From assembly GCF_006345805.1 (NCBI RefSeq), contig NC_042999.1:79918001-79982000 (forward strand): a stretch of 64,000 nucleotides of DNA. The letters run 5' to 3'. The position numbers and the translations under genes are program-made. How positions within the stretch are numbered: the first letter of the stretch is position 1; each line of letters starts with the position of its first letter. This document shows positions 17,862 to 63,775 of the stretch, piece by piece. The stretch is from Octopus sinensis. Taxonomy: Eukaryota. The notes beneath the pieces are model-generated. The model was not told the origin of the DNA. It worked only from the letters and a program-made list of their open reading frames with translations, and ran no database searches.

Positions 17862-20851
17862 ATGATCAAACTTTAAACCTCTACAACTTTTTTAATACAT
17901 TTTTTCTGGATAAAATGAAATAACTTCAGCAATTCAGTTTGGGCAAGTGTATTATTGTGCCAACATCAGAGTAACCAGTGAACATCGAAGGAAGAAATAT
18001 TATTTACATATATTTATTTACTACCGACAGATAGTTAGCGACAGTAGTACTTGTAGCGATAGCGAAATTTTTCTTCGATGGTGACAAAAAGGTTGCTGTC
18101 TGCCAGTAGAGAGGGAAAGAGTAAGGAATGCACGGTACTGACTAGAAAGGCTGTATAAAAATTAGTTCCTTACTGGGGTCCGGAACCTTCGTAGAGAAAA
18201 ATTTCGCCTCCCGAACAGTCTTGCCTAGCGAGCATTTGACGACATTGCACATACTAAGTTCCAGATTCTTTTCCAGCCCAGGATTGCAGTTCCTTCAAAA
18301 ACGGTTCCTCTTACTAATGTTATGTGTGATTGCGGTTGTACTGCAGTTGCTGTTTTACACCAGTAGCTACAATAGTTTCTAGTCATCGGATGCTGTTGTA
18401 TCTCTTCGTACCGGAATAGTAATACACTAACTTCTGTCTTACTATCGCTGATAGCTCCACAAGACACCGACTAGAACTGTCGACTCTCAGCTCTTCGACT
18501 CTCGACCCTCACTTGACGACCGGCTACTGGTCTACTTATAACTGGTCTACTTTTACCAGTCGGGGTGTACAGTTTCACTCTACAACAAAAACTATGAGCT
18601 GCTGGAAAACGTGGCTTACAAATGAAGAATCAACCTACAATTGGTGCCGACTCAGCGTGTATCAGCACGTCAACAACCACAGCATGCCAAGCTTGTCTTC
18701 CAGAGAATTCTGACGACAGGTAGACCGCTTGGCTAGTGGCATATAGTCAAATTTCATAGGATGGGCCATCGAACCTAGGTGATGTGCTTCTTGAGCAACC
18801 CCTGATTAATTCTCGTATCTTGGAGATTGTTATCAGTACCTTTTGTAGAGCTTCGTATCTTCTGCCAAAAGTCGCGGCAGACTGTCTAGGTAGGAGCTAA
18901 ATCCCATGGATGTCTTTGATTTATCACTTACTCCGTAAAGTAGAGCAAATTATGTGATATGCTGCACACATCTGCCCGAGTAGTACGAGCCCATCCTGGT
19001 CCGTCAAAACTTCACCTCGAATCTCTGACACCTGTAACGGTAAAGAATTATTCGTTCCCACTTTGTTTTGACACAAACCTCTAGTACAAAGAATGCAACC
19101 TTTGTATTTTGCGTTGAAGAAATGATCGGCAACTATCCTTGCTGCAAGCATTTCAGTCACGATGCCTTTGTTCACCCTTCTAATTTGCTAACTAGCACCC
19201 CTTGTAATCTATTTCTCTATTTCCCTTGCTCTTTATTAAACACAATCGATTCATATAACCCACTTCAGTGTGCCCCACCACCTATTGTAAACGATTTCCA
19301 CGCCACCTTCCACTTGACCAATTCATTAACTCGGTTCCATTAGTATTTGCGCACCGGGAAAGATGCGTTTTAACTTCTAGTACCTGGTCTCTGTATGTGA
19401 GTATTCCTCTAAGTTGAGTGTATGCTACAAACGTTTCGTTTGTGTAGCCCAGCAGCTTAAAATGTGAAAGCTCCTTCTATGCGTGATCCCAACTGAATCC
19501 CATCGTGCATCTATAACGCAGTTAATTTTTTCCACAAGTATTAAGGAGTGGTATGTTACAAGGAAGGTTTCTAAAAATTTTAAGTAGCTGGACAACTTGC
19601 TTCGATAGTGCATTGATGGTTTTTAGAAATACCACTGCTCCGAAGGTATTTGCCTTTATTGTCGTTCATATCTAGTCCCACCGATATCCCACTCGGATCC
19701 AGGAAGAACGTCTGCATCTCTAAAATTTGATTCGTTCCAGAAATGCACTACCACTCCACTACCAGAACCACGCAGACTACAAGATGAGCTTACCCTTTAG
19801 TCGCCAAAAAGGAACTAGAAATGAGCTTGAAATTCTTGTTACGGTAATGACTACCACATCTGTCTAGTGATCTGAGGTCGAGTAGCATATGACCTTGCTT
19901 ACAAGCTGACCCTGGGTCAGGTACTTTTAGACACCTTACCCAGTGCGGCTATTTGAAAAACAAATAGAGGGAGAGGTTACCTTCTTCACCAAAAAGGGTG
20001 GTTAATTTGTTTCCTTTTCCGGAAAGGCATCTTTTTAAAGTTCCTTGTAATTGTAATAGCGTCTGGTGTATTCTTTTTCTAAAAATTAAAGCATATCCTG
20101 GTAACTGTCCAAAGGAATATATTAGATGCCTGTTGAATTGTCACTGGCACGATTCACTTATATAATAAAACGTTAAGACAGGCTATAGAGTACATGTGCG
20201 GATGAGTGAAACCATGGTATATAAACGTGTGGGTAAGTAAAGACTTCACACTGTATAATGGGACAATGATTTACATCAAAATAAACAAATAATTAGAATA
20301 ATCTAAATAAAAACCACAATAAACAAAGCATCTTTTCATAAGCGATTGCTTTAAATTACTCAAGCATTCGTTCCGCCTGTGAATCCTCGAACTAGAACAT
20401 AATGCAACAAAGAATTCAGTAAGAATTAGGGCAAATAGTACGGGGCAAATTGAAACCAGCGTATGGTAGATCCCTGGAGGGTCTTTATCAAAATTTTTAT
20501 CATCTGAGCGATGAAACGTCCTATACTCTTGAGGACATTTTCTTGTCTGAAGGTATCTGTGAACAAAGATGCTCACGGGTACATTCAGTATACTACAGAC
20601 AAGAAATCACAAGCGCACAATATCATCAGTCGATCTCACTGAACGAAGATGCTTGGATCTCATCTATTAGCTGGCAGATTACTCTATCTGTTTTTCATGT
20701 TCTCGAAATACCTATATTGTTTTTGTAAATCATTGTACAGATTCATGATATTGAATTAATCATTTTGTGTAATTTATAAATACTAATTTTATTTTTCGTT
20801 TTGGGATTTGGTTTGCAAGATTCTTTATATAAGTTCGTGTGTTGAAGCATA

Positions 20852-21050
20852 TTCTGTTGTGTCTGGGGAGAGTCATTTTCTTTTTGTCCCTTAACACACT
20901 CACCGGTAAACTTTCTACTTATTTCTTATTTTTATTTTCCTAAAATTTTCGTTGCGTCTTCTAACCTTTTCAATAGTCAAGACTATTCATCTAGTGTGTT
21001 ACATTATAGGGTACAGAAAGAAAATTACTCTCCCCAGACACAATAGAATT
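20852..21050. repeat. inverted-repeat element containing a U3:A8-type hammerhead-like motif (minus, 20940-20976)
   Basis: ATTCTGTTGTGTCTGGGGAGAGTCATTTTCTTT versus AAAGAAAATTACTCTCCCCAGACACAATAGAAT. Minus CTA-TTGAAAA-G-GTT..AAC-GAAAATTT-TAG. Confidence 0.6.
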
Positions 21051-21360
21051 TTATTTTTATATAATGTGCAACGTCTTTGACACTCCACAATCTTTCAGTT
21101 AACTTTATTTTGTCCATCTCCATACGATTTGTAACACTTTTGTATAAAATTCATTGTATAGAACAGTGGTTCTTAACTTTTCCTTGTAACACTCCTTTTT
21201 AAGTAGTCGTTATCCTTAGCGCCCACCTGAGTGGCGAGCATGGTACCACGACTAAACTAACCAAACATGGATGATAATTTATAAATTTTAATGTAAAAAT
21301 GGACTGTACAAGCTTTTAACAGTGAAATAATACAAAAATGATAAAGATATAAGTTGTAAC

Positions 21361-21632
21361 GGGCATATGACGTTGTGTTTAAGAGCGTGAGCTACTAACC
21401 CCAAGATTCCGAGTTCGATTCCAGGTAGTAACCTGAATAATAATAACAACAACATAGAAAAATGCCTTAGGAATGAGAACCCAGGTTCGAAATTTCTCCA
21501 AGACACCTGATGAAGGCTGGAGGGTATATCTGCCGAAACGTTGTGTTAACAACAAACAAGTTGAGGACAAATATCCGTCAAATGTAAATAATGTAAATCA
21601 TGTACATAATTCCTCATCTCTTAAATATAGAA

Positions 21633-21677
<45 letters not shown>

Positions 21678-21697
21678 CATTATTATTATTATTATCA

Positions 21698-21769
<72 letters not shown>

Positions 21770-21974
21770 TATATTCAGTGAGAGAGCAGTGCATGCCATC
21801 AAAGTGACACTGAGGTAACATATACGAAGCCCAGTATATCCATCATGACTACTCGTCTTATAAGGATACACCAGGGTCAACAATCACAAACACATCGCGA
21901 TCTCATATCATGATGAACAGCGCATGATCTTTCGGGTGGGGACAAATATCCGTCAAATGTAAATAATGTAAATA
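21361..21974 (+). mobile_element. solo tRNA-headed, hammerhead-containing element (PLE pLTR-derived) with captured family C fragment
   Basis: tRNA-like head 21361-21433, HHR 21502-21547, (ATT)n, family C fragment 21777-21940, repeated tail segment. Flanked by AAGTTGTAAC at 21351-21360 and 21975-21984. Confidence 0.8.
21502..21547 (+). ncRNA. minimal type-I hammerhead ribozyme
   Basis: GACAC-CTGATGA-A-GGCTG..CTGCC-GAAAC-GTT-GTGTT. Stem I GACAC/GTGTT; stem III is the loopless palindrome AACGTT. Confidence 0.8.
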
Positions 21975-22257
21975 AAGTTGTAACTTTACTTTAAACATTG
22001 CAAGTTAATGATTTCCTTGAACCAGATGAGATTTCTTTTTATAATAATGACCATTACTAGTTTTATCATGTTTAATATTATTACTACTATAGGCAAAATT
22101 TAGTATGTTAATTATATTATCTCATCGCTCTCTTACTACCCCCTAAAGCTTAACACTACCTTCGACGTGCACAGTATCCCACTGGGGGCGGTACCGCCCA
22201 CGTTGAGAACCTCTGGTATAGAAGAAAGCATCCTAGAAGTATTTCTTCCGATTCATT

Positions 22258-24088: not shown

Positions 24089-24607
24089 CCCTGATGCAGT
24101 CTGATTGGAAGTGTTATCATGTACATTGTTTTGTCTTGGTATAAAAGATGGGCTACAGCAAATATTCTGCTCAATACCACAGATTTGCTTGTCAGTTGTT
24201 TGACCTTAACCAGTTGAGCATGTCCCTTAGTGGCTGACGATATGTGCATCTCTGATCACGAGCAGAAGTAGTGGGGGAGCATCATAGCCATGTGTTGAGA
24301 GGGATTCTTTGGGGTTTGAATAATTCACCTTTGGAAACATGGGTGGTTCTTTCAACATCCTTAAACAACCCTTATTCAGGGACCTTTTGAGCGGGATGGG
24401 CTACTCAACCTGAAGAAAATTCTAACTGGGCCCCACCTGCAAGGTCATGTGCTGTTTATCTTGATATGAGATCACCATGTCGCGCACATATGGTTGTGAT
24501 GCATGTGCCTGGTGTACCTTTATCAGACGGGTAGTCATGATGGGTATATTGGGCTTCGTATATTTTACCCCAGTGTCACTTTGATGGCATGCACTGCTCT
24601 CTCACTC
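24088..24607. mobile_element. ~550-bp non-coding interspersed element (family C) embedded in (AAT)n
   Basis: Nearly identical to 42421..42974 apart from a short deletion; partial copies at 24677-24855 and 21777-21940. Confidence 0.85.
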
Positions 24608-24676
<69 letters not shown>

Positions 24677-24855
24677 GCCCTGATGCAGTACCAGGTAGTG
24701 GCTCTCATGTCTTCTGATCTTAACCGATTGGAAGTGTTATCATGTACGTTGTTTTGTCTTGGTATAAAAGATGGTCTACAGCAAATTTTCTACTTAATAC
24801 CACAGATTTACTTGTCAGTTGTTTGACCTTAGCCAATTGTGCATGTCTCTTAGTG
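24677..24855. mobile_element. family C truncated copy
   Basis: GCCCTGATGCAGTACCAGGTAGTGGCTCTCATG.. matches 42421 onward. Confidence 0.8.
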
Positions 24856-36076: not shown

Positions 36077-37017
36077 GATTTTGATTTTGATTTTGATTTT
36101 TCCAGTTTCAGCTAATGAGCTGTGGCCATGCTGGGGCACCGCCATTTGGTTTGCTACACGATTTTACCTCACGGATGCTTTTTAGCAAACGCCATCTGAT
36201 GCATGAGAGAGTTCGATGCAGCTGCCCTCATCTGCACCTCCTGCCGTGAAGTTGGTTCATCCGGGACACCTGACAGGAAGAGATCCAGTCCTACTTTAAA
36301 GACATCCGCATCTACACCATGCAGGCCCTCAGGTTCTTCGGGAGGATATTGAAGAGCCGTGGGCCTCTGAAGCCCAGGCTATCACAATATCTTGTCCTAC
36401 ATCTTGATGGCAAATTTGGAGTCCTTGGTACTACGCAGTGGCGTCCGGTTCTGGCATTTGTGTGACTCTCGATGCCAAAGTCTGGGACAAGACCTTCCAG
36501 GATCTTCCAGATATATATTATGGCATATCTTTCTCGTCTACGCTCCGGGGAATAGAGCTTTAATCTCTTGAGTCTTTCCCAGTAGCTCATATGCTGCACA
36601 GAGGCTATCTTCTTCGTGTAGCTTCGTTGGATCGCCTCAAGTTCTGTGATCAACTTGACAATGGATGGTGACCATAGCTGAGAGCAATAGTCAAAGTGGC
36701 TCAGGACAAGTGTCTTCCAGAGGACCATCATGGTTTCTTGTTCTCTTGTTCCAAAGGTTCTAAGAATCCATCCAGCCAGCCGTCTACATTTCATTGTCAG
36801 TTTAGCAACATGTACATGAAAGGTCGCGTCATCACTCATGTGAATACCCAGGTCACGCACTGATTGTGCCTCCGGGATTGCAATCCCTCCGGGTCCAGTG
36901 TATTCATTGGGTATTGCATTCAGTTTTGCATGCTGATAGTGTAAAGCTTGAAACTTTTCAGCATTGAACTGCATGCTATTCTTTTCAGCCCACTTGTATA
37001 TTTCGTCCAGCTCACAT
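36077..37017 (-). mobile_element. 5'-truncated CR1/L2-group LINE (RT thumb/C-terminus plus 3'UTR)
   Basis: ELDEIYKWAEKNSMQFNAEKFQ..VRDLGI..LSHFDYCSQLWSP..LEAIQRSYTK..YWERLKRLKLYS.ERRRER. Tail GGCGGTGCCCCAGCATGGCCACAGCTC..CTGAAAC plus (AAAATC)n. Confidence 0.93.
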
Positions 37018-37253
37018 TGCATATATACATACATATTTTTGAAAAGTCTTTCTGAACATTACTTCAAGTATAAAGATGATTTTTTAAAAAGAATTATAAA
37101 ATATTTTATCAGGACGTTACTAAACCTTTTGGAAGAAGATTTCTTCGTAGTGTGAGCGAGCACTTTCAATTATATCTTTTGAAACACACTTATACATACA
37201 TACGTATATACATGCTCATACGCATGCGCACACGCACTCACACACACACCTAC

Positions 37254-40459: not shown

Positions 40460-40675
40460 ATCCTCCCTACTAAACGCACAAGGCTTGAAATTTGTGGGAG
40501 GGGGACAAGTCGATCATATCGACCTCAGTGTTTCATTGATTCTTAATTTATCAACCCCGAAAGGATCAAAAGCAAAGTCTACGACGGTGGAATTTAGACT
40601 GAGAATGTAAGGCCGGACGAAATGTCACTAAGCATGCGCGAGGAGAACAAATGATTCTGCCAGCTCACCGCCTTA
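40460..40675 (-). mobile_element. family B SINE
   Basis: AAGGCGGTGAGCTGGCAGAATC..GATCCTTTCGGGGTTGATAAATTAAG. Confidence 0.8.
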
Positions 40676-40683
40676 ACAACAAC

Positions 40684-40770
<87 letters not shown>

Positions 40771-40772
<2 letters not shown>

Positions 40773-41955
40773 TTGGATGCTAAAACTTGTCTCAAAACAT
40801 GAAAACAAGAAAGCATCATACTCAGTCACAAAACAGGCAAAGGAATATCTAAGTGAATTCCGAATACAACCAATTTCGGAATTAGAGATAGATATACAAG
40901 AAACAAGCACAGAAAAAGCTAGGCGCATGAAAACCCGTGCCAAAACTGCGGCCTTAGATATTCTGAATAATAAATGGCAAGAAAAACCTCTCTATGGCAA
41001 ATACCCAAAGAGAGCGAATAATGCAGATATCGACAAAGCCCTGACCCATCAATGGCTAATGGCCTCTGGCTTAAAATCTGAAACAGAGGGGTTTATCATA
41101 GCAGCTCAAGATCAATGCCTACCAACAAGAAACCTACCAGGCCAACATATTAAAGATCAGAAGCAGTCCAACGTGTCGTGTATGCAAGCAACAAAATGAA
41201 ACCATTGACCATGTGGTCTCCAAGTGCAGTCTTCTAGCGCCTACAGAGTATCTCAACAGGCACGATAGAGCTGCACAATATATTCACTGTGTAATCTGTA
41301 AAAACCTGGATTTGCCCCATGAAAAAAACTGGTGGAACACAACCACCCCCAGTGCTTGAAAATGACCACATCTCACTCCTCTGGAACTTCACCATTCAAA
41401 CTGACAGGAAGATAGATGCAAATAGGCCAGACATCATATTGAAAAACTTCAAACAAAGAACATGCCTCCTCATTGATATGACTGTCCCAATCGATATAAA
41501 CGTATCTGTCAAGACCTACCAAAAACTGAGCAAATATAAAGATCTTGAATAGAAATCAGCAAAATGTGGAAGCTGAAGACTAAAACAATACCTGTTGTCA
41601 TAGGTGCCCTGGGAATGATAGCAAAAGGGGCTGATAGCTACCTAACTCAGATACCAGGAAACCCAAAAATGGCAGAAGTTCAAAAGATAGTGCTCATGGG
41701 AACTGCTCATATCCTACGCAAAATACTCTCTATGTAATCTCAAGGTTTAAAACAAACATAATTTTCGGTTTAAAAAAAAAAAAAAAAAAAAAAAACTTTT
41801 TTTTTTTAGACATTCATTAGTACAACATCCCCACCCCCCAAATATATGGCACACTAGGCATAACAACAACATGAACTTCCAACCCTGTTGTCTCTTGAGG
41901 TCTCTGGGTGAGACTTGGAGCCAACTTGTACAAATATAAAGCAAAAGTCAAACAG
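40771..41955 (+). mobile_element. 5'-truncated R4/Dong-like LINE (CCHC knuckle plus PD-(D/E)xK restriction-like endonuclease)
   Basis: KWQEKPLYGKY..WL..GLKSETEGFIIAAQDQ; CRVC..ETIDHVVSKC; RHDR; NRPDII..LIDMTVP..KYKDLE; PVVIGALG. Flanked by (AAT)n; frameshifts. Confidence 0.92.
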
Positions 41956-41979
41956 AATAATAATAATAATAATATTAAT

Positions 41980-42009
<30 letters not shown>

Positions 42010-42010
<1 letters not shown>

Positions 42011-42381
42011 CCTTCTACTAAAGGCGCAGGGCCTGAAATTTTTGGTATTCCACTGGTACTTAATTTATCACCCCTCCCCATAAATGATGGAAGGTAAAGT
42101 CGACCTCGGCGGAATTTGAACTCAGAACGTAACGACAGGCGAAATACCTATTTCATTACTACCCACAAGGGGCTAAACACAGAGAGGACAAACAAGGACG
42201 GACAAACGGATTAAGTCGATCACATCGACCCCAGTGCGTAGCTGGTACTTAATTTATCGACCCCGAAAGGATGAAAGGCAAAGTCGACCTCGGCGGAATT
42301 TGAACTCAGAACGTAACGGCAGACGAAATACCGCTAAGCTTTTCGTCCGGCGCGCTAAATATTCTGTCGGCTGACCGCCTC
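42010..42381 (-). mobile_element. dimeric MetaSINE-like SINE (family B)
   Basis: GCCTTTCATCCTTTCGGGGTCGATAAATTAAGTACCAG in unit 1; headless unit 2 begins GGTATTTCG at ~42148. Confidence 0.85.
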
Positions 42382-42420
42382 AATAATAATAATAATGATA
42401 ATAATAATAATAATAATAAT

Positions 42421-42974
42421 GCCCTGATGCAGTACCAGGAGGTGGCTCTCATGGCTTCTGATCTTAACTGATTGGAAGTGTTATCATGTACATTGTTTTG
42501 TCTTGGTATAAAAGATGGGCTACAGCAAATATTCTGCTCAATACCACAGATTTGCTTGTCAGTTGTTTGACCTTAACCAGTTGAGCATGTCCCTTAGTGG
42601 CTGACGATATGTGCATCTCTGATAACGAGCAGAAGTAGTGGGGGAGCATCATAGCCATGTGTTGAGAAGGATTCTTTGGGGTTTGAATAATTCACCTCTG
42701 GAAACATGGGTGTTTCGTTCAACGTCCTTAAACAACCCTTATTCAGGGACCTTTTGAGCGGGATGGGTTACTCAATCTGAAGAAAATTCTAACTGGGCTC
42801 CACCTGCAAGGTCATGTGCTGTTTATCTTGATATGAGATCACCATGTCGCGCACATATGGTTGTGATGCATGTGCCTGGTGTACCCTTATCAGACGGGTA
42901 GTCATGATGGGTATACTGGGCTTCGTATATTTTACCCCAGTGTCACTTTGATGGCATGAACTGCTCTCTCACTC
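42421..42974. mobile_element. family C element, longest copy, embedded in (AAT)n
   Basis: Ends GCCCTGATGCAGTACCAGG and CTGCTCTCTCACTC match those of the other copies. Confidence 0.85.
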
Positions 42975-42981
42975 AATAATA

Positions 42982-43058
<77 letters not shown>

Positions 43059-43080
43059 TAATAATAATAATAATTATAAC

Positions 43081-43139
<59 letters not shown>

Positions 43140-43148
43140 TAATAATAT

Positions 43149-43329
43149 TCACAGACAAGACAGAGTTGGGACCTACATACACTGGAAGCTATGCCAACAC
43201 ATTCTATGCAAAACACTTTCAATACAGTAACCATAAGAGCATCACAGCAAACCACTGCTCATACCCACGGCACACAGATCTGCGCTCGGTAGTGAAGTGA
43301 AAGCACACAATAAAAATAAAACTACTGAC

Positions 43330-43330
<1 letters not shown>
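43149..43330 (+). mobile_element. internally deleted R4/Dong-like 3' fragment
   Basis: DRVGTYIHWKLCQH fused to a terminal ..KTLSIQ* and a short 3'UTR; in (AAT)n. Confidence 0.6.
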
Positions 43331-43366
<36 letters not shown>

Positions 43367-43367
<1 letters not shown>

Positions 43368-45136
43368 GCCCTAATACCCCTTACAAGTGAATTAAATAGA
43401 ACAGGGTATGGGTATAAAATTGCCAATAACAAAATAAGCCATCTATTTTATATGGATGACTTAAAACTCTATGGTAAAGACGATAATGAACTTGAAGGCC
43501 TATTGCGCACTGTGAAAGCATTCAGCGATGACATCGGGATGGAGTTTGGGCTTGAGAAGTGTGCCAAGGCCACTTTCCAGAAAGGGAAAGTGAAGACCAC
43601 AAATTCAGTCATAAGAGAGCTTGAGCAAGAACAGACATACCAATATTTAGGGATAAATGAAGGCTCTGGTATTCAGCATGCAAGCATGAAAGAAAAGATC
43701 AGGAAGGAATGTTATAGGAGAGTTCGTGCAGTCCTGAAATCTGAACTAAATGCACGTAACAAGGTGTTAGCTATAAATTCCTTGGAAGTTCCAGTTGTTA
43801 CTTATAGCTACAATGTGTTGAACTGGAATATGAGTGAAGTAAAGAAAATAGATAGGAAAATACACAAGCTGCTGAGTTGTAATAGGATGCACCACCAAAA
43901 GGCAGACGTAGATCGCCTTTACCTTCCCAGAGCCCAAGGAGGTCGAGTCCTGATCCAATTTGAACTAGCTTACAAAACAACCACAATTGGACTGGCCAAA
44001 TATCTCGAAATAACGAATGACTGGATGGTAAAGCTCGTGGAAAATCACGAGAGATGAAAGAAGCTTCATTCTATCATAAAGGAAAGCAAAACTTTGCTAT
44101 TGATCTCGTGCAAGATACCCAAACTGAACAACCCGAGGGAAGTGCGGCAACTATTGTTGCAAAGAAGGGCAAAATAATGGCAACGAAAAAAGCGCACGAG
44201 CAATTGGCTGATAGGTGGGAGGAGAAACCTTTGCACGGCAAATATGCGACCCGCAGCAAACAAGCTGATGTTGACCAGAAGCAAACACATCAGTGGCTAC
44301 GGAGCTCAGGGCTAAAAGCAGAGAGTGACGGTTTCATCCTGGCTGCTCAAGATCAAAGCCTATTAACCCGGAACTACCAGGCCAATGTGATGAAAAATGG
44401 AGCAGACCCAAAATGCCGATTCTGCAACGACATGATTGAAACAGTGGACCACCTGGATGTAAAGTCTTAGGACCAGTGGAGTATAAATTAAGACATGACA
44501 GAGTTGGCCAATATCTACACTGGCTAATAAGTCGGCATTACAATATCTAAACTGCCGACAAGTGGTATAATCACCACCCTGAAGCTGTAACTAAAGGAGA
44601 AAATGTAACGATTCTGTGGGACTTTCCAGTACATACAGACCGAACCATCAAAGCCAATAAACCAGATATTGTTGTGAAAGACAAAAACAATAAAGTTTGC
44701 TTATTGATCGACATGAGCATCCCCTGTGATCATAATATCTCGGCGAAAGAGTTTGACAAGCTCAGAAAATATAAAGACCAGCTCATTGAAATTGAGAAAA
44801 TGTGGCATTTCAAGGCGGTTACAATACCAGTGATCGTAGGAGCACTAGGAATGATCAAGAAGGGAACCGAAAATTATATGAGAATGATCCCTGACTTACC
44901 ATCCCTGCAAGAAGTGCAAAAGATTGTCTTAACTGGTACATCACACGTATTGAGAAGAGCATTGTCGATGTGAGAACTATTACTACTCATGTATTTTAAT
45001 TTAACTTTTAAAAAAATGAACGAACTAGTGAGTTTAGTTTAATGGCCTACCAATGTATACTATGAGTTTATTTGCCCTAGGAGTCGGGAAGACACTCGGC
45101 AAGAAATAGAAGCAAATTTGAAAGAAGAAAAAAAAG
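43367..45136 (+). mobile_element. 5'-truncated R4/Dong-like LINE (RT, CCHC and restriction-like endonuclease)
   Basis: HLFYMDDLKLY..FSDDIGMEFGLEKCA; YLG; RLYLPRAQGG; WEEKPLHGKY; CRFC..ETVDHL; NKPDIVV..LLIDMSIP..KYKDQ; PVIVGALG. (AAT)n flanks; several frameshifts and stops. Confidence 0.95.
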
Positions 45137-46867: not shown

Positions 46868-47342
46868 TAGCAGGAATTCTTCGCTTGCATATTTTGAATT
46901 TGTTGGCACTGTCAGTTTGAACGGGTCATCTGAGGTGTTAAGTCGCCAAAAGGGTATGTTCCTACTTTCAGTGTTTCCAAATCCAAATTAAGAAATTTTG
47001 GGCTGACGAAAGAAATGTCGAATTTTATTTTTGCTGATCTAGAAACGTAACGTTCTCAAATAATCTTTGCACTTGTGATTTTTTAATGTTTTTTACCCCC
47101 ATACCTTCGTGGGTTATTCTGAGTAAACACTATCTGAGAGAAATTTTCTTTAAGTATTAGAAATAGGTACAAAAACTTTTTTGGCTGCTATTTCTAATGA
47201 GTTCAGTATGTGGTAAAGTAATTTATTTTACTAAGCCCTTTTATATAATGTAATATTTTGAATTCTCCTTAAATGGTCCTTTTACATACTGAATACTTGG
47301 TGAAATTGATTAATAACTAATTAATTTTACCCTCAATTGTTG

Positions 47343-47347
<5 letters not shown>
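46868..47347 (+). mobile_element. non-coding HHR-bearing repeat (pLTR-like, family D), older copy
   Basis: Diverged reverse complement of 47412..47880; HHR CTGACGA..GAAAC-GTAAC-GTT-CTCA at ~46999-47058; (TA)n flanks. Confidence 0.8.
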
Positions 47348-47411
<64 letters not shown>

Positions 47412-47414
<3 letters not shown>

Positions 47415-48447
47415 TTCAACAATTGAGGGTAAAATTAATTAATTAATCAATTTCACCAAGTATTCAGTATGCAAAGGGACCATTTAAGGCGAATTCAAAT
47501 TATTACATTATATAAAAGGGCTTAGTAAAATAAATTACTTTGCCGCATACTGAACTCATTAGAAATAGCAGCTAAAAAAACTTTTTTAAAACTATTTCCA
47601 ATACTTAAAGAAAACCTCTCTCATATAGTGTTTGCTCAATTCAACTCACGCAAATATGGGGGTAGAGACATTAAAAAATCAAGTGCAAAGGTTATTTGAG
47701 AACGTACGTTTCAAGATTAGTCAAAATTCGACATTTCTATCATCAGCTCAGAACTCCCTGGTTTGGATTTGAAAACACTGAAAGTAGGAGCATACCCTTT
47801 CGGCTTCCTCTCGCTTCCGAAGATCTGCTCGCAACTAACAGTGCCAACAAACTCAAAAATGCAAGCGAAGAATTTCTGCTCTCCCCTTTCCACCAGCGTG
47901 GGTTAAAATCAGTAAACACTATGCTTTTTTCGGTAAAATCCGCGGCATTATATAGAGAGAGATGAATTATAATTTCAACAATTGAGGGTAAAATTAATTA
48001 ATTAATCAATTTCACCAAGTATTCAGTATGCAAAGGGACCATTTAAGGCGAATTCAAATTATTACATTATATAAAAGGGCTTAGTAAAATAAATTACTTT
48101 GCCGCATACTGAACTCATTAGAAATAGCAGCTAAAAAAACTTTTAGTTGCGAGCAGATCTTCGGAAGCGAGAGGAAGCCGAAAGGGTATGCTCCTACTTT
48201 CAGTGTTTTCAAATCCAAGCTGATGATAGAAATGTCGAATTTTGACTAATCTTGAAACGTACGTTCTCAAATAACCTTTGCACTTGATTTTTTAATGTCT
48301 CTACCCCCATATTTGCGTGAGTTGAATTGAGCAAACACTATATGAGAGAGGTTTTCTTTAAGTATTGGAAATAGTTTTAAAAAAGTTTTTTTAGCTGCTA
48401 TTTCTAATGAGTTCAGTATGCGGCAAAGTAATTTATTTTACTAAGCC

Positions 48448-48452
<5 letters not shown>
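47412..48452. mobile_element. young rearranged family D element (inverted, partial tandem and re-inverted segments) between (TA)n tracts
   Basis: 47412-47585 is essentially identical to 47971-48143; 48144-48452 is the reverse complement of ~47513-47837 with a short deletion. HHRs at 47697-47750 (-) and 48217-48269 (+). Confidence 0.85.
47697..47750 (-). ncRNA. minimal hammerhead ribozyme
   Basis: TGAG-CTGATGA-TAGA..TCTT-GAAAC-GTAC-GTT-CTCA. Stem I TGAG/CTCA; palindromic stem III AACGTACGTT. Confidence 0.78.
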
Positions 48453-54947: not shown

Positions 54948-55085
54948 CATTATCTACATTCGACGATATTTGTCCTCATCTTGATTGTTGTTAACACAAC
55001 GTTTAGTCTGATATAACCTCCAGCCTTCCTCAGGTGTCTTCGGAAAATTTTGAACCTAGGTTCTCATTCCTAAGGCATTTTTCGA

Positions 55086-55137
<52 letters not shown>

Positions 55138-56025
55138 GTTGTTGTTGTTGTTGTTATTATTGTTCAGGTTACTGCTTGGAATCGAACTCGGAATCTTGAG
55201 GTTAGTAGCCCGCGCTTTTAACCACTACGCCATATGCCCACGAGCATATGGCTTAGTGGTTAAGAGGTCTCTCCGAATAGATACAAAAGATATGCGGATC
55301 ATATGACATCAGAGCAGTATTCAAGAGTAACACAACACTTCGCAAATATCTCCTTCGAGTAAAACCACCAGTAGAAGAGAATATGACCAAAGACTGCTTG
55401 TACGCCATCCCATGCAGCTTATGGTAAGTTATACAAAGGCGAAACATGCCACCCCCTCAAAATAAGGGTAGGCGAACATCGCAAAGCTGTGACACGAGGA
55501 GATATCGATAAATCGGATGTAACTGATCATGTATGGAAAAATGGAGACCACCTCCTCACCTTGTGGGATGAAGTTAAAATAATAGACAGAGAACACCACT
55601 GGAAAATACGAAAACTAAAAGAAGCAGCACATATGCTAGGACACAACAACTTCCTAAGCAGACCGAATGCAGATAAGAGCAGCATATGGGGACAGGTATT
55701 AAGGAAGGATAGAAAAATACTAGATTTATAAGACCTAAAATTCACTCCATAATTGCTCACGGGCATATGGCGTAGTGGTTAAGAGCGCGGGCTACTAACC
55801 CCCAACAACAACAGCAACAACAACAGCAACAGTAACAACAACAATAATAAAAACATCGAAAAATACTTTAGGAATGAGAACTCAAGTTCGAAATTTCCCA
55901 AGACACCTGAAGAAAGCTTGGAGGGTATATCAGCCGAAACATTGTGTTTACAACAAACAAGATGAGGACCAATATCCGTCAAATGTAAATAATGTACGTA
56001 ATTCCTCATCTCTTAAATATAGAAC
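54948..56025 (+). mobile_element. 5'-truncated Penelope/Poseidon-type PLE with inverted pLTRs; pLTR = tRNA-like head plus hammerhead
   Basis: 55262-55731 encodes GLSE.IQKICGSYDIRAVFKS..LYAIPCS/YGKLYKGET..LKIRVGEHRK..SDVTDHVW..RKLKEAAH (GIY-YIG, frameshifted). pLTRs at 54948-55246 (-) and 55754-56025 (+); HHRs at 54993-55038 (-) and 55902-55948 (+). Confidence 0.9.
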
Positions 56026-58112
56026 TGTAAACATAAGTTGTTGTTTAGCATGTATATTTTTTCTATAGCCTGACTCTTCTTTGACCATCAAAACTTCGTC
56101 GTTAGCCTACGTTAGCCCATTGATATTACATAGTTCCATCACTGTCACTTTTAACCTTTGGCCATTATATCCTCGTACTTTCTTATGTAGGACAATATCA
56201 TCCATTTAAACTGTAAACCATTTTTAGCGAATGCAACCAACGAAGAAACTCCATCGTTGACTCGTTTCTTTTGCATATTGGAATAGTTAATTATTTCAAA
56301 GGATTGAAAAAAATTTCTTTGAAAAATGTAGCGTTCTAGAAACATGTGTGAATTGCTACATTCACCGATTTATATATGTTACATATTCATACGAGATATC
56401 CTACATGACTGTATATGATATCTTGCCTATTTATATACGTTTAATATTTAGCGTAAACATTCGAATACCAAATGTTGAAGCCAGTAATGGAGGAGAAAAT
56501 TGAAAAACCTGCCGGAACAAAGCATAGGAAATCAAAAGCTAGAAAAATTCTCTATTGTACAATTGAAAATAAAAGGTGTCAACTGTCACAACAAAAATAT
56601 TCGAATGTAAATATATGAAGCTGCTTATTCGTATGAGTGAATGACTTTACAGGAATGACGACAATACCAATGAATATCTCATTGTATATTTATTTATATT
56701 CTAATAGCTGCGATGAGAGAAAACACTCAGATAATGATATGATTATCGTATAGGTAATATTTATCACTATATTTAACACGCTTGTGATTTTTCCGCTCTG
56801 TGTTGTGAATATATCTATATATGTGTGTGTATGTACGTATAACTACATCCGGTGTGTAAGCATAAACGCGCATATTTATAATCGTCATACATAAAATACG
56901 TAAACACACGCACTTACACACATACACGATGTGGGTACAATCTAAATGCTTACAGTTCCGTTAAATCTTGGCAGCTGTCAGATATGCAGTTCTGTAGTCA
57001 AGCGGGAATATATTACTAATTGTCACATGATCCTACAGAATACAGTGGAAGAACACAAACACACAGGCACATACATACATATATATATATATATATACAC
57101 ACATATATATATATGTATATATACACATATACATATATGTGTGTGTGTGTATCTATACGCACACACGTATATACGTACACACACACACACGCACATATAT
57201 ATATATATATATCATGTAATTTAGATAATTCCTACTCTACTTTCGACAACAAGCCTCAGTTACAAAGTTACTTTGAAGCTAAACACACACGTGGTGCGCG
57301 CATGCACTCACACACGTTCACACATATACACACACTCATGTACACGCGCATATATAGAAACATACATAGACATACGTATGTGAATATACATGTATATATA
57401 CCCATATGTTTGTATGTATATATGTATGTATTTACACTTATATGTGTGGGGTGAAGGAGAGGGAAGGGAGATAGAGAGACGGAGGCACATCAGAATGGTA
57501 AAGAAATTTACCTAACAATCAGGATTCCTCGCGTCTGGTCCAACTGTGTGCCATTATGAGCAAATGACTTTTAACATGAATTTCGGTGAGCTAAGACATG
57601 TAAATGAAATTATGGAGACAAATCCTTTGAAAGCCAGTTGATTTTTCTTTATTTGTAAATGAAGTGGCCAGTCAGTTCTTCGCTATTTCGAACGGAGAAT
57701 GTTGTTACTGTTACAAGTGTCTGTGGAATGATTGGTCACATTACAATCCACTGATCAAAAAATTATATTGATCAAACTTATTTAATACTCATCGTCGAAA
57801 GAAGATATCCATTTGCTTGAATTTTACTATAAATCTATAGCAGAGTAGTGAATAAAGTCTCTTTCTAGCCATTAGAACCCGAGCCCTACTATATTGCTAG
57901 GCTATATGAGTAAAAATGTGAAAAACTGTGTGGAAGTGGGCGCAGGAGTGGCTGTGTGGTAAATAGCTTGCTTAGGAACCACATGGTTCCGTGTTTAGTC
58001 CCACTGCGTGTTACCCTGGGCAAATGTTTTCTACTATAGCTTCGGGTCGATCAAAGCTTTGTGAGTCGATTTGGTAGACGTAAAGTGAAAGAATATATAT
58101 ATATATATAACA

Positions 58113-60284: not shown

Positions 60285-60482
60285 AGTAGTGTTGAATGAA
60301 TTATCTTATTAAGGATAATTCGAAAGATAACCGATACCTGGGTAGCAAATTCACATCAGAAAGAACACGGTTGAAGTTACGTCCCTAGGGCATAGACTAC
60401 GTGCTTTCGTGCGGAAATTTGTATGTTTATTTTAAAAATATAAGTTTATGAAAGAATGGAGTTGAACGACTTGTTAACAAAT

Positions 60483-60582
60483 TTCCTTTATTTTCGACAT
60501 ATGTTTCGAAGGCTGCATATTCCTAATTCCGAAGGAATAAGGAGTACATTATGCAGATTTCTCATCAGGAAAGGCAAGGAAC
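60483..60582 (-). ncRNA. hammerhead ribozyme in the PLE 3' pLTR
   Basis: Reverse complement of the 62473..62571 motif; stem II includes CTGCATA/TATGCAG. Confidence 0.85.
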
Positions 60583-62472
60583 TTATGTCGACATCAAAAT
60601 GCACAAAAAACTTTTAGCTGACTGCTCTCAAAGAGCCCATGGCGATAATGAGTGTCTGTTTATAAGGAGTGACGTCAGAGTGGCTGAATGTAGAAGAATC
60701 TAGAAGGATCTAAAGGTTCAAGGGTTCAAACGAAGTAGGAGGAGGGAGGCATAAGAATAGTGAGGTGAGAGGGTGCAGGTCAAAAGAATGGTGTGTTTAA
60801 TTGATTTCTTTTATGAATGAGTGCCTGTGTGTGTGACTGTATATAACTGTCATAATGTGTGTATGTATGTGAATGCGTGATTGTGTTTGTGGATGGGTAG
60901 ATGTCAGAAAACTGACAGCTGTGAGGTGAGAGGTCTGTGTGTTTGATTGTGTTTACTGTAGAGAAAGGGAAGTAGAGAGAGAAAGGGAGGAAGAGTCGGG
61001 CGAGGTGAGAGGCAACGCTGGAATGGGTAGTAGTTCTTGGAATTATAAGAAAATCTTTTGACTATTGGGGTGAAATATAACAAAACTTTTTTGGAAATCG
61101 AGGGGTTATCTATATTAGTCACTATTCATATGAGTGAAAGGTGTGTCGTTTCCAGTGTAAGCACCTGTAAGGCCTTTCGACGATTGTATTTATTAAAGGG
61201 ACTTTGGTGAACAAAATATGAAAAAGTTCGGAATTACAGATGCCACAAAATTTTCTGCCCTTATCAAACGGGAAGGACACTGACAAAATGGACCATTCCA
61301 GCTTGAAAGAAGTATTATTGTTCTTCAGACGCCAGACTAATTTGCTTAGCACCGTGCTGTGTTGCTTTCTCTTATCTCTGAAAGTAGAATAATGGTTGGA
61401 GATCCTTTGGGCTAATTTAGAAGAGGTTGCGCCAATGTAGAAGTAGACATCGGTTCCAGAAGTAAATTTGCACTGGTAAGTGGTGTTTCTAATTTTGGAA
61501 TTTTGGGATAAGAACTTTAATCTGTTGGGGTTGGTTTCCGATACTAAGACAGAGTTTTTATTGTTGTGATAGGTGTAAAAATTGTTGCTGGCTTTGGCCA
61601 TGATACTATTCATCTTATTATCATTACTATTAGTTGTAATATCGTCGGCAAATTCCCTGGCTATAGGAATGCTGCGATTGTTATCATCAATAATTTAACT
61701 GTTATTAAGAATGCTGTTACTATTACCACTAACACCACCACTATTAATAATCTGGTTAATGTTATTATCATTATTACTATTGCTAACGCCAATGCTGCTA
61801 TGAATGTTGCTAATATCCATACTACTTCTATTATTATTATTATTGTATGTTAGGTTGGAATAGGTAAGGGCGGTGTCGCTACTCTTGGGTGATGAACCCT
61901 TATTTAGCAGCTTATTATTGTGGAAAGCTATTATCTGCGATAGATTTTTAGTATTTGAGAATGCAATCCTTACTTTATGCGAATTTATAGTGGAGTAATA
62001 TCTAGAATTCCTAGGAAAATTCTTAGCTACAGCTTCACGGAATTGTAAAGGGAGGTTAGACCTGATTTGTTTCCCGAAAGGAATCACAAACCAGATATAG
62101 TTTTTTTGTTCTTGGAATGGCTCAGAGTGTTAACATTTACATTAAAGGGCGTATTTCTGTGTAGTAGAATGGGTTTTGGTTTACGATGGCCTCCCCTGGT
62201 CCGCAAATTATTTTTGTTAAATATATTATTGTCGACGTTGCTAGAGCTGAAATCACTAATTATGTTATTTATATTATTATTAGTAGTTATCTTATCTTGA
62301 TGGGTAAATATTAGTTTAGGATGGGCCGGATCGATATATGATACCTTATCCCTATAACCGGCCTTTGACAAGGCGGCGTTATAAAATTCCGCTTTTTGTT
62401 TAAAAATGTCGACATTTGCAGATAAATTTGATAGTCTTAAGGATATATTTTTAACCAAATTATCGGTGATAG

Positions 62473-62571
62473 TTCCTTGCTTTTCCTGATGAGAAATCTG
62501 CATAATGTACTCCTTATTCCTTCCGAATTAGGAATACGCAGCCTTCGAAACATATGTCGAAAATAAAGGAA
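62473..62571 (+). ncRNA. hammerhead ribozyme in the inverted pLTR
   Basis: TTCCTTGC-TTTTC-CTGATGA-GAA..CTGC..GCAG..TTC-GAAAC-ATAT-GTC-GAAAA-TAAAGGAA. GUC site at 62556-62558; palindromic ATAT loop. Confidence 0.85.
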
Positions 62572-62644
62572 ATTTGTTAACAAGTCGTTCAACTCTATTC
62601 TTTCATAAACTTATATTTTTATATATATATATATATATATATAC

Positions 62645-63775
62645 AAAGCAAATTTATTTTAATATGGGGTAGGACCCCCTGTGGCAGTAATTACAGCTTG
62701 AATTCTACGAGGTATAGACTCGTACAAAGTTTGAATTGTTTCCAAAGGAATTCTTGTCAATTCTTCAGCTAAAACAGTCTCCAGTTCTTGTAGTGATGAT
62801 GGTGGAGGATATCGACTCCTTACTTGTTTTTCTAAAATGCACCATAAATGTTCAATAATATTGAGATCTGGGGACTGTAGTGGCCAGATAAAATGTTCAG
62901 CTTCACTAGAATGTTCCTCGTGCCATTCAGTAACAACTGTAGCTGCGTGAATTGGTGTATTATCCTCCTGAAAGATTGCGTTTCTCTCTGGAAACAGTTC
63001 CGCAACCATAGGATGAGTGTGATTAGATTAAATGCGTAAACAGTATAGACTCTTAATTCTGCCATGAAGGGTAACTATTGGGCCGGCGGAATTCCAAGGT
63101 ATAGCCCCCCAAATCATCACAGATCCTCCTCCATGTTTAACAGTTGGAAGAAAGCAGTCTGGGTCAAATGCTTCTTTTGGCTGTCTCCACACGTATACTC
63201 GGCCGGTGGTCGGAAATAAGATAAGGATGACTCATCCGAGAAAATAACATTCTTCTACTGCTCTAGGGACCAATTCTGTAGGTTTTTACTCCACCGTAAA
63301 CGCTTTGCAACGTTTGTTTTTGAAAGTAGTGGTTTCCTGATTGCAACCCTCCCTCTGGCTTTGTGCAGCTACCGACGAACGGTTTTTGTGGAAACTGAGT
63401 TCGCGAGGTGGTCATTAAGCTCTGCATATAATTTTGGGAGCTGTACTTTTGTGATCCTTTCTAACAATACGCATAAGAGTCCGACAGTCGCTATCTGCAA
63501 GTTTTGGTTTTCTTCCGGAGTTTTGTTTCGACGAGAAGATTTTTCCCTCCTTCTCAAAGGCTATCATTACTTTCGTGACAGTACTTCTTGATACATCAAA
63601 CATTTCGGTTGTCTTCGTTACGCTAGCACCTGCCATACGAGCACCAACAATTTGATCTCTTTGAAAGTCCGATAGACATGTCATTTTGATGAATTTTAAT
63701 TACATTTTTCTGATGATACCTAAAAGAAACAGCAATTTTAGCAAGACATATAAGCAAAAACTAATAAAAATATGT
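62645..63775 (-). pseudogene. Tc1 (DD34E) transposase pseudogene, near full length, frameshifted
   Basis: LSDFQRDQIVGARMAGASVTKT..VSRSTV..SGRKPKL; VSTKTVRR; VIFSDES; TVKHGGGSVMIWGAI; FQEDNTPIH; WPLQSPDLNIIEHLW; LYESIPRRIQAVI..GGPTPY. TIRs not seen. Confidence 0.93.

What the first reader, a model, noticed from the sequence alone, without database searches (positions are those of the whole stretch)
21351..21984. Solo tRNA-head plus hammerhead copy with its own 10-bp TSD: candidate Penelope-mobilised ribozyme SINE
Seen: the same module as the 55-kb pLTR starts exactly at the first base of the tRNA-like head (21361) and has no PLE coding sequence. It has no T4 run before or within the HHR. It is bracketed by AAGTTGTAAC repeats inside an otherwise intact hAT MITE. 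The tail segment GACAAATATCCGTCAAATGTAAATAATGTA occurs twice (~21566 and ~21941). Inference: a start at the Pol III +1 position suggests retroposition of a Pol III transcript, i.e. a SINE or retrozyme using PLE machinery. The duplicated tail fits tandem or circular templates, or template jumping.
Basis: partly seen in the sequence, partly recalled or inferred. Interest (0 to 1): 0.8.

Follow-up and report, generated by a model that had tools for sequence, protein, structure and literature searches.

The report
Penelope retroelement with built-in tRNA promoter
This is a short copy of the front end of a Penelope-type jumping gene that begins with a decayed arginine-tRNA sequence, which likely acts as a SINE-style RNA polymerase III promoter and would explain why tens of thousands of such short copies are estimated in this animal genome.

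Summary
The insertion is real. Empty copies of the host hAT MITE hold AAGTTGTAAC once, so the 10-bp target duplication stands.

It is not a separate SINE or retrozyme. 21361-21633 is the 5' end (pLTR plus tail) of a Penelope/Poseidon element and holds the first 54 codons of its ORF (ATG 21473). The repeated tail piece reflects Penelope's two reverse-transcription start sites: 36 of 44 two-armed insertions carry one end of each class.

What I did not find in print is that the unit begins with a tRNA-Arg(ACG)-derived head with A and B boxes. In 1.4 Mb of unselected sequence, 9 of 15 insertions stop at its first base and none carries upstream ORF. The captured piece ends 11 nt before a TTTT, and the element body has no family-wide TTTT (p about 0.03-0.04, weak).

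Pol III transcription is inferred, not shown; RNA-seq was uninformative. New variant of a known kind.

The parts
21164..22215 (.). Host hAT-type MITE with TIRs at 21164-21177 and 22202-22215; its own 8-bp TSD GTATAGAA lies at 21156-21163 and 22216-22223
21351..21360 (+). Left TSD. Its last 2 nt (AC) equal the dinucleotide found before the head in 35 of 63 copies, a likely microhomology
21361..21433 (+). tRNA-Arg(ACG)-derived head. A box 21368-21378 has 3 changes from the family state in this copy; B box about 21412-21422 is intact
21434..21472 (+). (AAT/AAC)n spacer and short 5' UTR; spacer length varies between copies
21473..21633 (+). First 54 codons of the Penelope ORF; ends at RT start site 2 (the tail end, family 21633-21637)
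21502..21547 (+). Minimal type I hammerhead motif inside the ORF: CUGAUGA 21507, GAAA 21535, predicted cut after 21542, no loop 3; one stem II mismatch in this copy
   Evidence: layout as in PMC4209133
21634..21940 (-). Captured piece: (TAA)n tail plus the 3' 165 nt of an unrelated TAA-targeting repeat 'X', antisense to the module and 15-19% diverged from other X copies
21941..21974 (+). Second short module piece (copy of 21566-21599) ending at RT start site 1 (family 21589-21610)
21975..21984 (+). Right TSD
54948..56029 (.). Sister insertion of the same family: inverted pLTR (54948-55239, site-1 end), GIY-YIG end of the ORF (about 55260-55760) and direct pLTR with tail (55761-56029)

Best explanation
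The insertion is a short retrocopy of the 5' end of a Penelope/Poseidon element whose unit begins with a tRNA-Arg-derived A/B-box head, and that head likely serves as an internal RNA polymerase III promoter that supplies the template RNA. SHOWN: the head is followed by the hammerhead motif and the ORF start; copies have two fixed 3' end classes about 35 nt apart; 5' ends pile up at the head; the 10-bp TSD is real. FROM PUBLISHED BIOCHEMISTRY (PMC11167929): a Poseidon protein nicks both strands and starts reverse transcription inside the RNA, at two sites a little over 100 nt into the ORF. INFERRED for the family: because those cis signals sit at the front of the unit, any copy that keeps head plus tail can give a short RNA that is a complete template, so the element makes its own SINE-like offspring without a separate SINE lineage. 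INFERRED for this locus: one insertion event. RT primed at site 1 at the right-hand nick and copied 34 nt. It then jumped, at a short GG-type microhomology, to near the 3' end of a read-through RNA from a source copy that sat in the TAA tail of an old X repeat, and copied back to the RNA's 5' end. The hammerhead cut does not define either end of the copies.
For: Module continues into the ORF in natural long copies (L164, L179, L182, L187). L164 is a full-length unit that starts at the same head base with unrelated DNA before it. The N-terminal peptide aligns with a full-length relative (P0005, 21/46 identical, E=3e-6). RT_1 Pfam hit and 44% RT identity to an 836-aa Anolis carolinensis protein. 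3' ends of 84 solo arms: 35 at site 1, 48 at site 2, 1 elsewhere. 36 of 44 two-armed insertions have one end of each class. Unselected 1.4 Mb: 15 insertions; 9 stop within 7 nt of the head's first base, 1 runs 30 nt further upstream, 3 stop inside the head, 2 stop further 3', and 0 carry upstream ORF. The head scores best against tRNA-Arg(ACG) among 10 isoacceptor types in 4 of 4 heads and above all 2000 shuffles; the column majority equals that tRNA at 47 of 73 positions. A box intact in 35 and B box in 47 of 63 heads. The captured piece stops 11 nt before the first TTTT of antisense X in 8 of 11 X copies examined, 12 nt before it in 1, and 2 could not be scored. The captured piece is 81% identical to other X copies against 95% for a typical one, while the module is 3-5% from its family, so X is older than the insertion. 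No family-wide T4 in 2.4 kb of body, about 3 expected.
Against: No RNA evidence for a start at the head: three cDNA runs show both strands equally, no pile-up of starts or ends, and 84-87% of reads running on into unlike flanks. The source locus of the captured piece was not among the 40 scored of 4336 candidates (best 85%), and none of 14 fetched X loci had the module beside it. The T4 deficit is weak (P about 0.03-0.04, one family), and Dong-R4 ORF pieces in the window are also low (1 seen, 3.5 expected). The 11-nt distance to TTTT is a single case. D. virilis Penelope also starts inside its pLTR from a LINE-like internal promoter (PMC2377424), so 5' clustering alone does not imply Pol III. 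A weak hairpin (-6.7 kcal/mol) spans the unit boundary and offers another way to fix the 5' end. An uncapped Pol III RNA would not easily give the protein (general knowledge), so a second transcript type is probably needed.
Confidence: 0.6

Rival explanations
1. Same element identity, but the tRNA head is a passenger or a processing signal. The unit is transcribed by Pol II (internal promoter or read-through), and the 5' end is set by that promoter, by cutting at the tRNA-like +1 or the boundary hairpin, or by RT fold-back there.
For: Penelope has a LINE-like internal promoter in its pLTR (PMC2377424). Palindromes at pLTR 5' ends and solo pLTRs are known without tRNA (PMC3846280). 24 of 63 heads in my (mostly selected) loci follow the upstream unit's 3' end, so longer templates exist. 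RNA reads look like passive read-through. An unchecked AI note reports 5' clustering in a PLE without a tRNA head.
Against: The 5' boundary coincides with tRNA position 1 (or 2 nt before it). By eye the acceptor stem no longer pairs while box spacing is kept, which fits a promoter better than an RNase P substrate (alignments). The capture ends beside a T4.
Confidence: 0.3
2. One reading: an independent non-coding SINE or retrozyme that borrows Penelope enzymes and replicates through hammerhead-cut circular or tandem RNA.
For: Solos far outnumber ORF-bearing copies in the unselected sample. One head-to-tail dimer was seen among the loci (L007). Retrozymes are proposed to be PLE derivatives (bioRxiv 10.64898/2026.07.22.740005).
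Against: The module is ORF sequence. There is no separate lineage. Copy ends lie at the two RT sites, not at the GUU. Arrangements are inverted pairs, not arrays. None of the 15 listed RNA joints is a circle at the GUU, though 41 more were not shown and the library was not suited to this.
Confidence: 0.05
3. For this locus only: X inserted into the MITE first and made the 10-bp TSD, and Penelope pieces were later added at both of its ends.
For: X is more diverged than the module. Penelope endonuclease prefers ATT (PMC11167929). No source locus was found.
Against: It needs two exact hits at both X/TSD borders with no duplication of their own. Most of 31 X hits lie in TAA runs, which this MITE site lacks. 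The insertion carries exactly one site-1 and one site-2 end, as single events do.
Confidence: 0.05

Closest known systems
Penelope/Poseidon PLEs: PAc of Anolis (PMC11167929) and Adineta Pen1-3 (PMC3846280)
   Same: RT plus C-terminal GIY-YIG; pLTR holding a minimal hammerhead and the ORF start; optional 30-40 nt tail; inverted 5' pLTR; TSD of about 10 bp; 5' palindrome; unrelated sequence captured between solo pLTRs inside a TSD.
   Different: Here the unit begins with a tRNA-Arg-derived A/B-box head. The passages I read report TATA/Inr-like motifs (Adineta) or a LINE-like internal promoter (D. virilis, PMC2377424).
Schistosome SM-alpha / Sj-alpha SINE-like repeats (as reviewed in PMC6765202; the original paper was not held)
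   Same: Pol III-type promoter followed by a type I hammerhead.
   Different: Those are non-coding repeats released from multimers by the ribozyme. This one is the coding 5' end of an autonomous element, with a minimal hammerhead that does not set the copy ends.
Animal non-LTR retrozymes (PMC7229834, PMC7761336, bioRxiv 10.64898/2026.07.22.740005)
   Same: Short hammerhead-bearing sequences related to PLE pLTRs; monomers occur.
   Different: Retrozymes are tandem arrays giving circular RNA. 'tRNA', 'Pol III' and 'promoter' do not occur in the preprint's main text.
Cassandra, Helenus, Ajax (PMC10886601; abstract start, figure legend and references seen)
   Same: A small-RNA-derived sequence placed in the terminal repeat of a retroelement.
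   Different: Those are non-autonomous LTR elements; this is an ORF-bearing PLE.
Octopus tRNA-derived SINEs OK, OR1, OR2 (Ohshima and Okada 1994; paper not held, tRNA-Arg origin recalled)
   Same: tRNA-Arg-type head (recalled); the host looks octopus-like (inferred from repeat content and genome size).
   Different: OR2 is a CORE SINE (PMC4758252). The head matches none of the window's abundant SINE-like repeats. Identity with OR1 could not be tested.

Membership tests
EN+ PLE, Penelope/Poseidon clade | Single ORF with RT and C-terminal GIY-YIG endonuclease | tested here: met
   RVT_1 E=3.5e-10; homologues carry RT, some with PF01541; pieces tile full-length P0005 aa 18-844 at 44-62%. All copies seen are broken.
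EN+ PLE, Penelope/Poseidon clade | pLTR that includes the ORF start and a minimal type I hammerhead | tested here: met
   core intact in 70 of 118 copies, helix I and II pairs 81-92% paired, no covariation
EN+ PLE, Penelope/Poseidon clade | Optional 30-40 nt tail, inverted 5' pLTR, variable TSD | tested here: met
   two end classes; 36 of 44 pairs have one of each; TSDs of 6-13 nt in several unselected copies and 10 nt here
EN+ PLE, Penelope/Poseidon clade | Clade placement by RT phylogeny | not tested
   No tree built; placement rests on domain order and 44% identity to an Anolis carolinensis 836-aa protein.
tRNA-derived SINE | tRNA-derived head with A and B boxes | tested here: met
   only 10 isoacceptor types compared, and Arg(ACG) was fetched on purpose
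tRNA-derived SINE | Non-coding, and a lineage distinct from the partner element | tested here: not met
   54 ORF codons; no diagnostic columns
tRNA-derived SINE | Transcribed by Pol III | not testable with these tools
   cDNA RNA-seq uninformative; indirect hints only
tRNA-derived SINE | Simple-repeat or poly(A) 3' tail at the priming site | tested here: not met
   Copies end at two internal sites followed by unique flank; the ATT run here belongs to X.
Non-LTR retrozyme | Tandem arrays with a hammerhead in each unit | tested here: not met
   One direct head-to-tail dimer (L007) against 44 inverted pairs.
Non-LTR retrozyme | Circular RNA joined at the cut site | tested here: inconclusive
   None among the listed joints in 3 ordinary cDNA runs; 41 joints not shown; no RNase-R data.

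The most novel reading that the evidence does not exclude
A protein-coding Penelope element has adopted a tRNA promoter and purged Pol III terminators from its whole 2.7-kb unit, so Pol III makes both full-length and short templates. SINE and autonomous partner are one sequence, and every tail-ended solo copy is a potential new source that can carry flanking DNA up to the next TTTT.
Probability: 0.25. Interest if true: 0.8.

Novelty: new variant of a known kind. Interest (0 to 1): 0.55.

Why it matters
SINEs normally arise when a tRNA head is joined to a LINE's 3' end. In Penelope elements the protein-binding and priming signals lie at the front of the ORF, so a tRNA head joined there would give a SINE-like template while staying part of the autonomous element. 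That would be a new route to Pol III-driven retroposition and would bear on how non-autonomous PLE derivatives arise. Separately, the one-of-each-end rule (36 of 44) is genomic support for both RT start sites being used in a single two-strand insertion, which can be tested in the existing in vitro system.

Tried and rejected
Rfam (whole window and the module alone) and ARAGORN: no tRNA or hammerhead call.

'No T4 in the insertion' as evidence for Pol III: rejected, P(no T4)=0.69.

Separate solo lineage: not found.

Source locus of the captured piece: not found.

RNA 5' ends or circles: the index listed no holder on record as RNA. Three raw cDNA runs labelled as the same species as one of the DNA holders gave no start or end pile-up.

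Empty orthologous allele in other runs: none among the listed rows; one contig carries the left junction.

This question stays open.

Control for T4 depletion in other A-rich ORFs: only 2 usable frames in 1.4 Mb plus the window, too few.

Literature: nine answered searches plus one search found no PLE with a tRNA-derived pLTR head. Preprint supplements were not seen.

Full report
OBSERVATION. The sequence shows AAGTTGTAAC at 21351-21360 and 21975-21984 inside an hAT-type MITE (21164-22215) that has its own 8-bp TSD. I searched the genome with the MITE's left part and examined 24 other copies: 21 run through the site with the motif once, 3 are interrupted earlier, and none has the module. The TSD is therefore real. 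One contig from another public run spans the left junction with one difference. The repeated segment, the lack of T4 and the hammerhead layout are as described. The host is an animal genome of 2.72 Gb that looks octopus-like; that is my inference.

WHAT THE MODULE IS. 21361-21633 matches two copies at 55 kb that flank a GIY-YIG fragment. Walking upstream through longer copies led to L164, a full-length unit of about 2.7 kb. It starts at the same head base, runs through the module straight into the ORF and ends in a second module. In L179, L182 and L187 the frame from the module's ATG continues into the Penelope N-terminal domain. In the window that ATG is 21473 and 54 codons follow; the peptide aligns with the N-terminus of the full-length relative P0005. 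The body has an RT domain with 44% identity to an 836-aa Anolis protein. In Adineta the pLTR likewise includes the first codons (PMC3846280, passages read).

TWO 3' ENDS. Of 84 arms without adjoining ORF, 35 end at window-equivalent 21589-21610, 48 at 21633-21637 and 1 elsewhere (one search shows unique flanks after the second site). These are about +117-138 and +161-165 from the ATG. Frangieh et al. (PMC11167929, main text read) show that a Poseidon protein nicks both strands, prefers ATT, and starts RT internally at two sites whose spacing is the tail, and that hammerhead cleavage is not needed in vitro. In my loci, 36 of 44 head-to-head pairs have one end of each class; 4 are site 2 twice in loci where an arm continues into ORF, 1 is site 1 twice, and 3 are other. 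Most of these loci were chosen by search; in the unselected sample the count is 6 of 8. The finding also has one of each (21633 and 21974), but in direct order.

21634-21940 is an ATT run plus 165 nt matching a 556-nt repeat (X) seen at 24.1-24.6 and 42.4-43.0 kb. X copies mostly keep that end, followed by TAA runs, so it is X's 3' end, here in antisense. It is 81% identical on average (best 85%) to 34 other copies, against 95% for a typical copy, while the module is 3-5% from its family yardstick. X does not normally insert outside TAA runs, so capture from an older locus is the simplest reading. Unrelated sequence between solo pLTRs inside a TSD is described in PMC3846280. The capture stops 11 nt before the first TTTT on X's antisense strand in 8 of 11 copies examined, 12 nt before it in one, and two could not be scored, as a Pol III read-through RNA would. 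This is one case, and the source locus was not found.

5' ENDS IN UNSELECTED SEQUENCE. I took 1.4 Mb at round coordinates on 13 contigs. It gave 17 clusters of hits: 15 module insertions (two clusters are one insertion split by a Dong-like piece) and one 37-nt ORF-like hit. Read by eye, 10 of 15 have an arm reaching within 7 nt of the head's first base. Nine stop there and one runs 30 nt into the upstream unit. Three stop inside the head, two further 3', and none has a longer upstream ORF. The density implies about 29,000 insertions (16,000-48,000). Before the head, AC occurs in 35 of 63 copies, GT in 9 and AT in 7, so the RNA may start 2 nt earlier. Solo and ORF-linked arms do not differ after correction for 177 columns.

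THE HEAD. A pattern search found this genome's tRNA-Arg(ACG) genes, and an Rfam tRNA search supplied other types. Four of four heads score best against Arg(ACG) among 10 types; this copy shares 46 positions and beats all 2000 shuffles. Box spacing is canonical, while the stems have decayed (by eye). The A box is intact in 35 and the B box in 47 of 63 heads; this copy's A box has three changes, so it is probably dead. The head matches no abundant SINE-like repeat of the window. By eye, a second PLE in the window has a hammerhead-like core and a TATA-like motif but no such head.

TERMINATORS. Across 70 aligned body segments (64,905 nt), T4 occurs at 0.31 per kb at 14 sites. Twelve are private, one is in 2 of 21 copies and one in 6 of 27, so none is family-wide. 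About 3 are expected: P(0)=0.04 by a Markov model and about 0.03 as the product over three natural ORF pieces. Dong-R4 pieces are also low (1 against 3.5) and the second PLE is not (8 against 7.9), so this is weak support.

HAMMERHEAD. Minimal type I form with no loop 3 and a palindromic helix III, as in PMC4209133 (first part read). The core is intact in 70 of 118 copies, helix I and II pairs hold in 81-92%, and there is no covariation. The overlap with coding sequence also constrains it. Activity is untested.

RNA. Three cDNA runs (about 6% of each read) cover the module on both strands equally, with no start or end pile-up; 84-87% of reads continue into unlike flanks. This shows read-through of many copies and cannot test Pol III. 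Contigs of four runs with four different organism labels hold the family at high depth.

COMPARISON AND NOVELTY. Every insertion feature is known for PLEs (PMC3846280, PMC8557442, PMC11167929; passages read, main text for the last). Promoter-plus-hammerhead repeats are known in schistosomes (review PMC6765202, passages). Retrozymes are proposed PLE derivatives (bioRxiv 10.64898/2026.07.22.740005, first two of five parts and term search). D. virilis Penelope uses a LINE-like internal promoter (PMC2377424, passages). Two octopus repeat surveys (PMC13282606, PMC8967140), the squid genome paper (PMC6962438), PMC7761336, PMC7229834, PMC10886601 and PMC4758252 were term-searched and the passages shown did not describe this. 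Ten searches found no PLE with a tRNA-derived head, but repeat databases were out of reach. Earlier AI notes describe tRNA-bearing non-coding Penelope-type repeats and 5'-clustered PLE solos in other genomes; I did not check them.

VERDICT. Real and explained at the locus level as a Penelope pLTR retrocopy with a captured piece (identity about 0.95). The tRNA-derived head on an ORF-bearing PLE is the new element, and its working as a Pol III promoter is likely but unproven (about 0.6). New variant of a known kind; interest 0.55.

Noticed in passing
window 60443-62611: A second, different Penelope-type element on the minus strand (RT end and GIY-YIG) with inverted 141-nt repeats, a hammerhead-like core and a TATA-like motif, and no tRNA head by eye.
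   Followed up: partly
window 24101-24855, 42421-42976: 556-nt non-coding repeat X, inserted in TAA runs, 31 hits in 1.4 Mb, often near Dong-R4 fragments and once inside this module's AAT spacer; probably a non-autonomous Dong-R4 partner.
   Followed up: partly
window 46869-48451: Nested inverted repeats with three hammerhead-like cores (47003 +, 48220 +, 47746 -); possibly pLTRs of a third PLE family.
   Followed up: no
window 6467 (+), 34078 (-), 48970 (-), 58435 (+): Further hammerhead-core-like motifs found by a loose pattern.
   Followed up: no
G000:C2:3.12-3.16 Mb (L257-L265): Tandem array of about 90 tRNA-Arg(ACG) anticodon-to-T-arm matches with a period of about 206 bp; ARAGORN calls full genes in the loci checked.
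   Followed up: partly
window 20851-21049: 43-nt inverted repeat 113 nt apart just left of the MITE; the same sequence interrupts MITE copy L033.
   Followed up: no
L007: Head-to-tail dimer of the module: a site-1-ended copy directly followed by a full site-2-ended copy.
   Followed up: partly
window 36312-37058, 40603-44973, 430-828, 62659-63027: Fragments of CR1-like, Dong-R4-like and mariner-like ORFs (names from recalled motifs), used only as T4 controls.
   Followed up: partly
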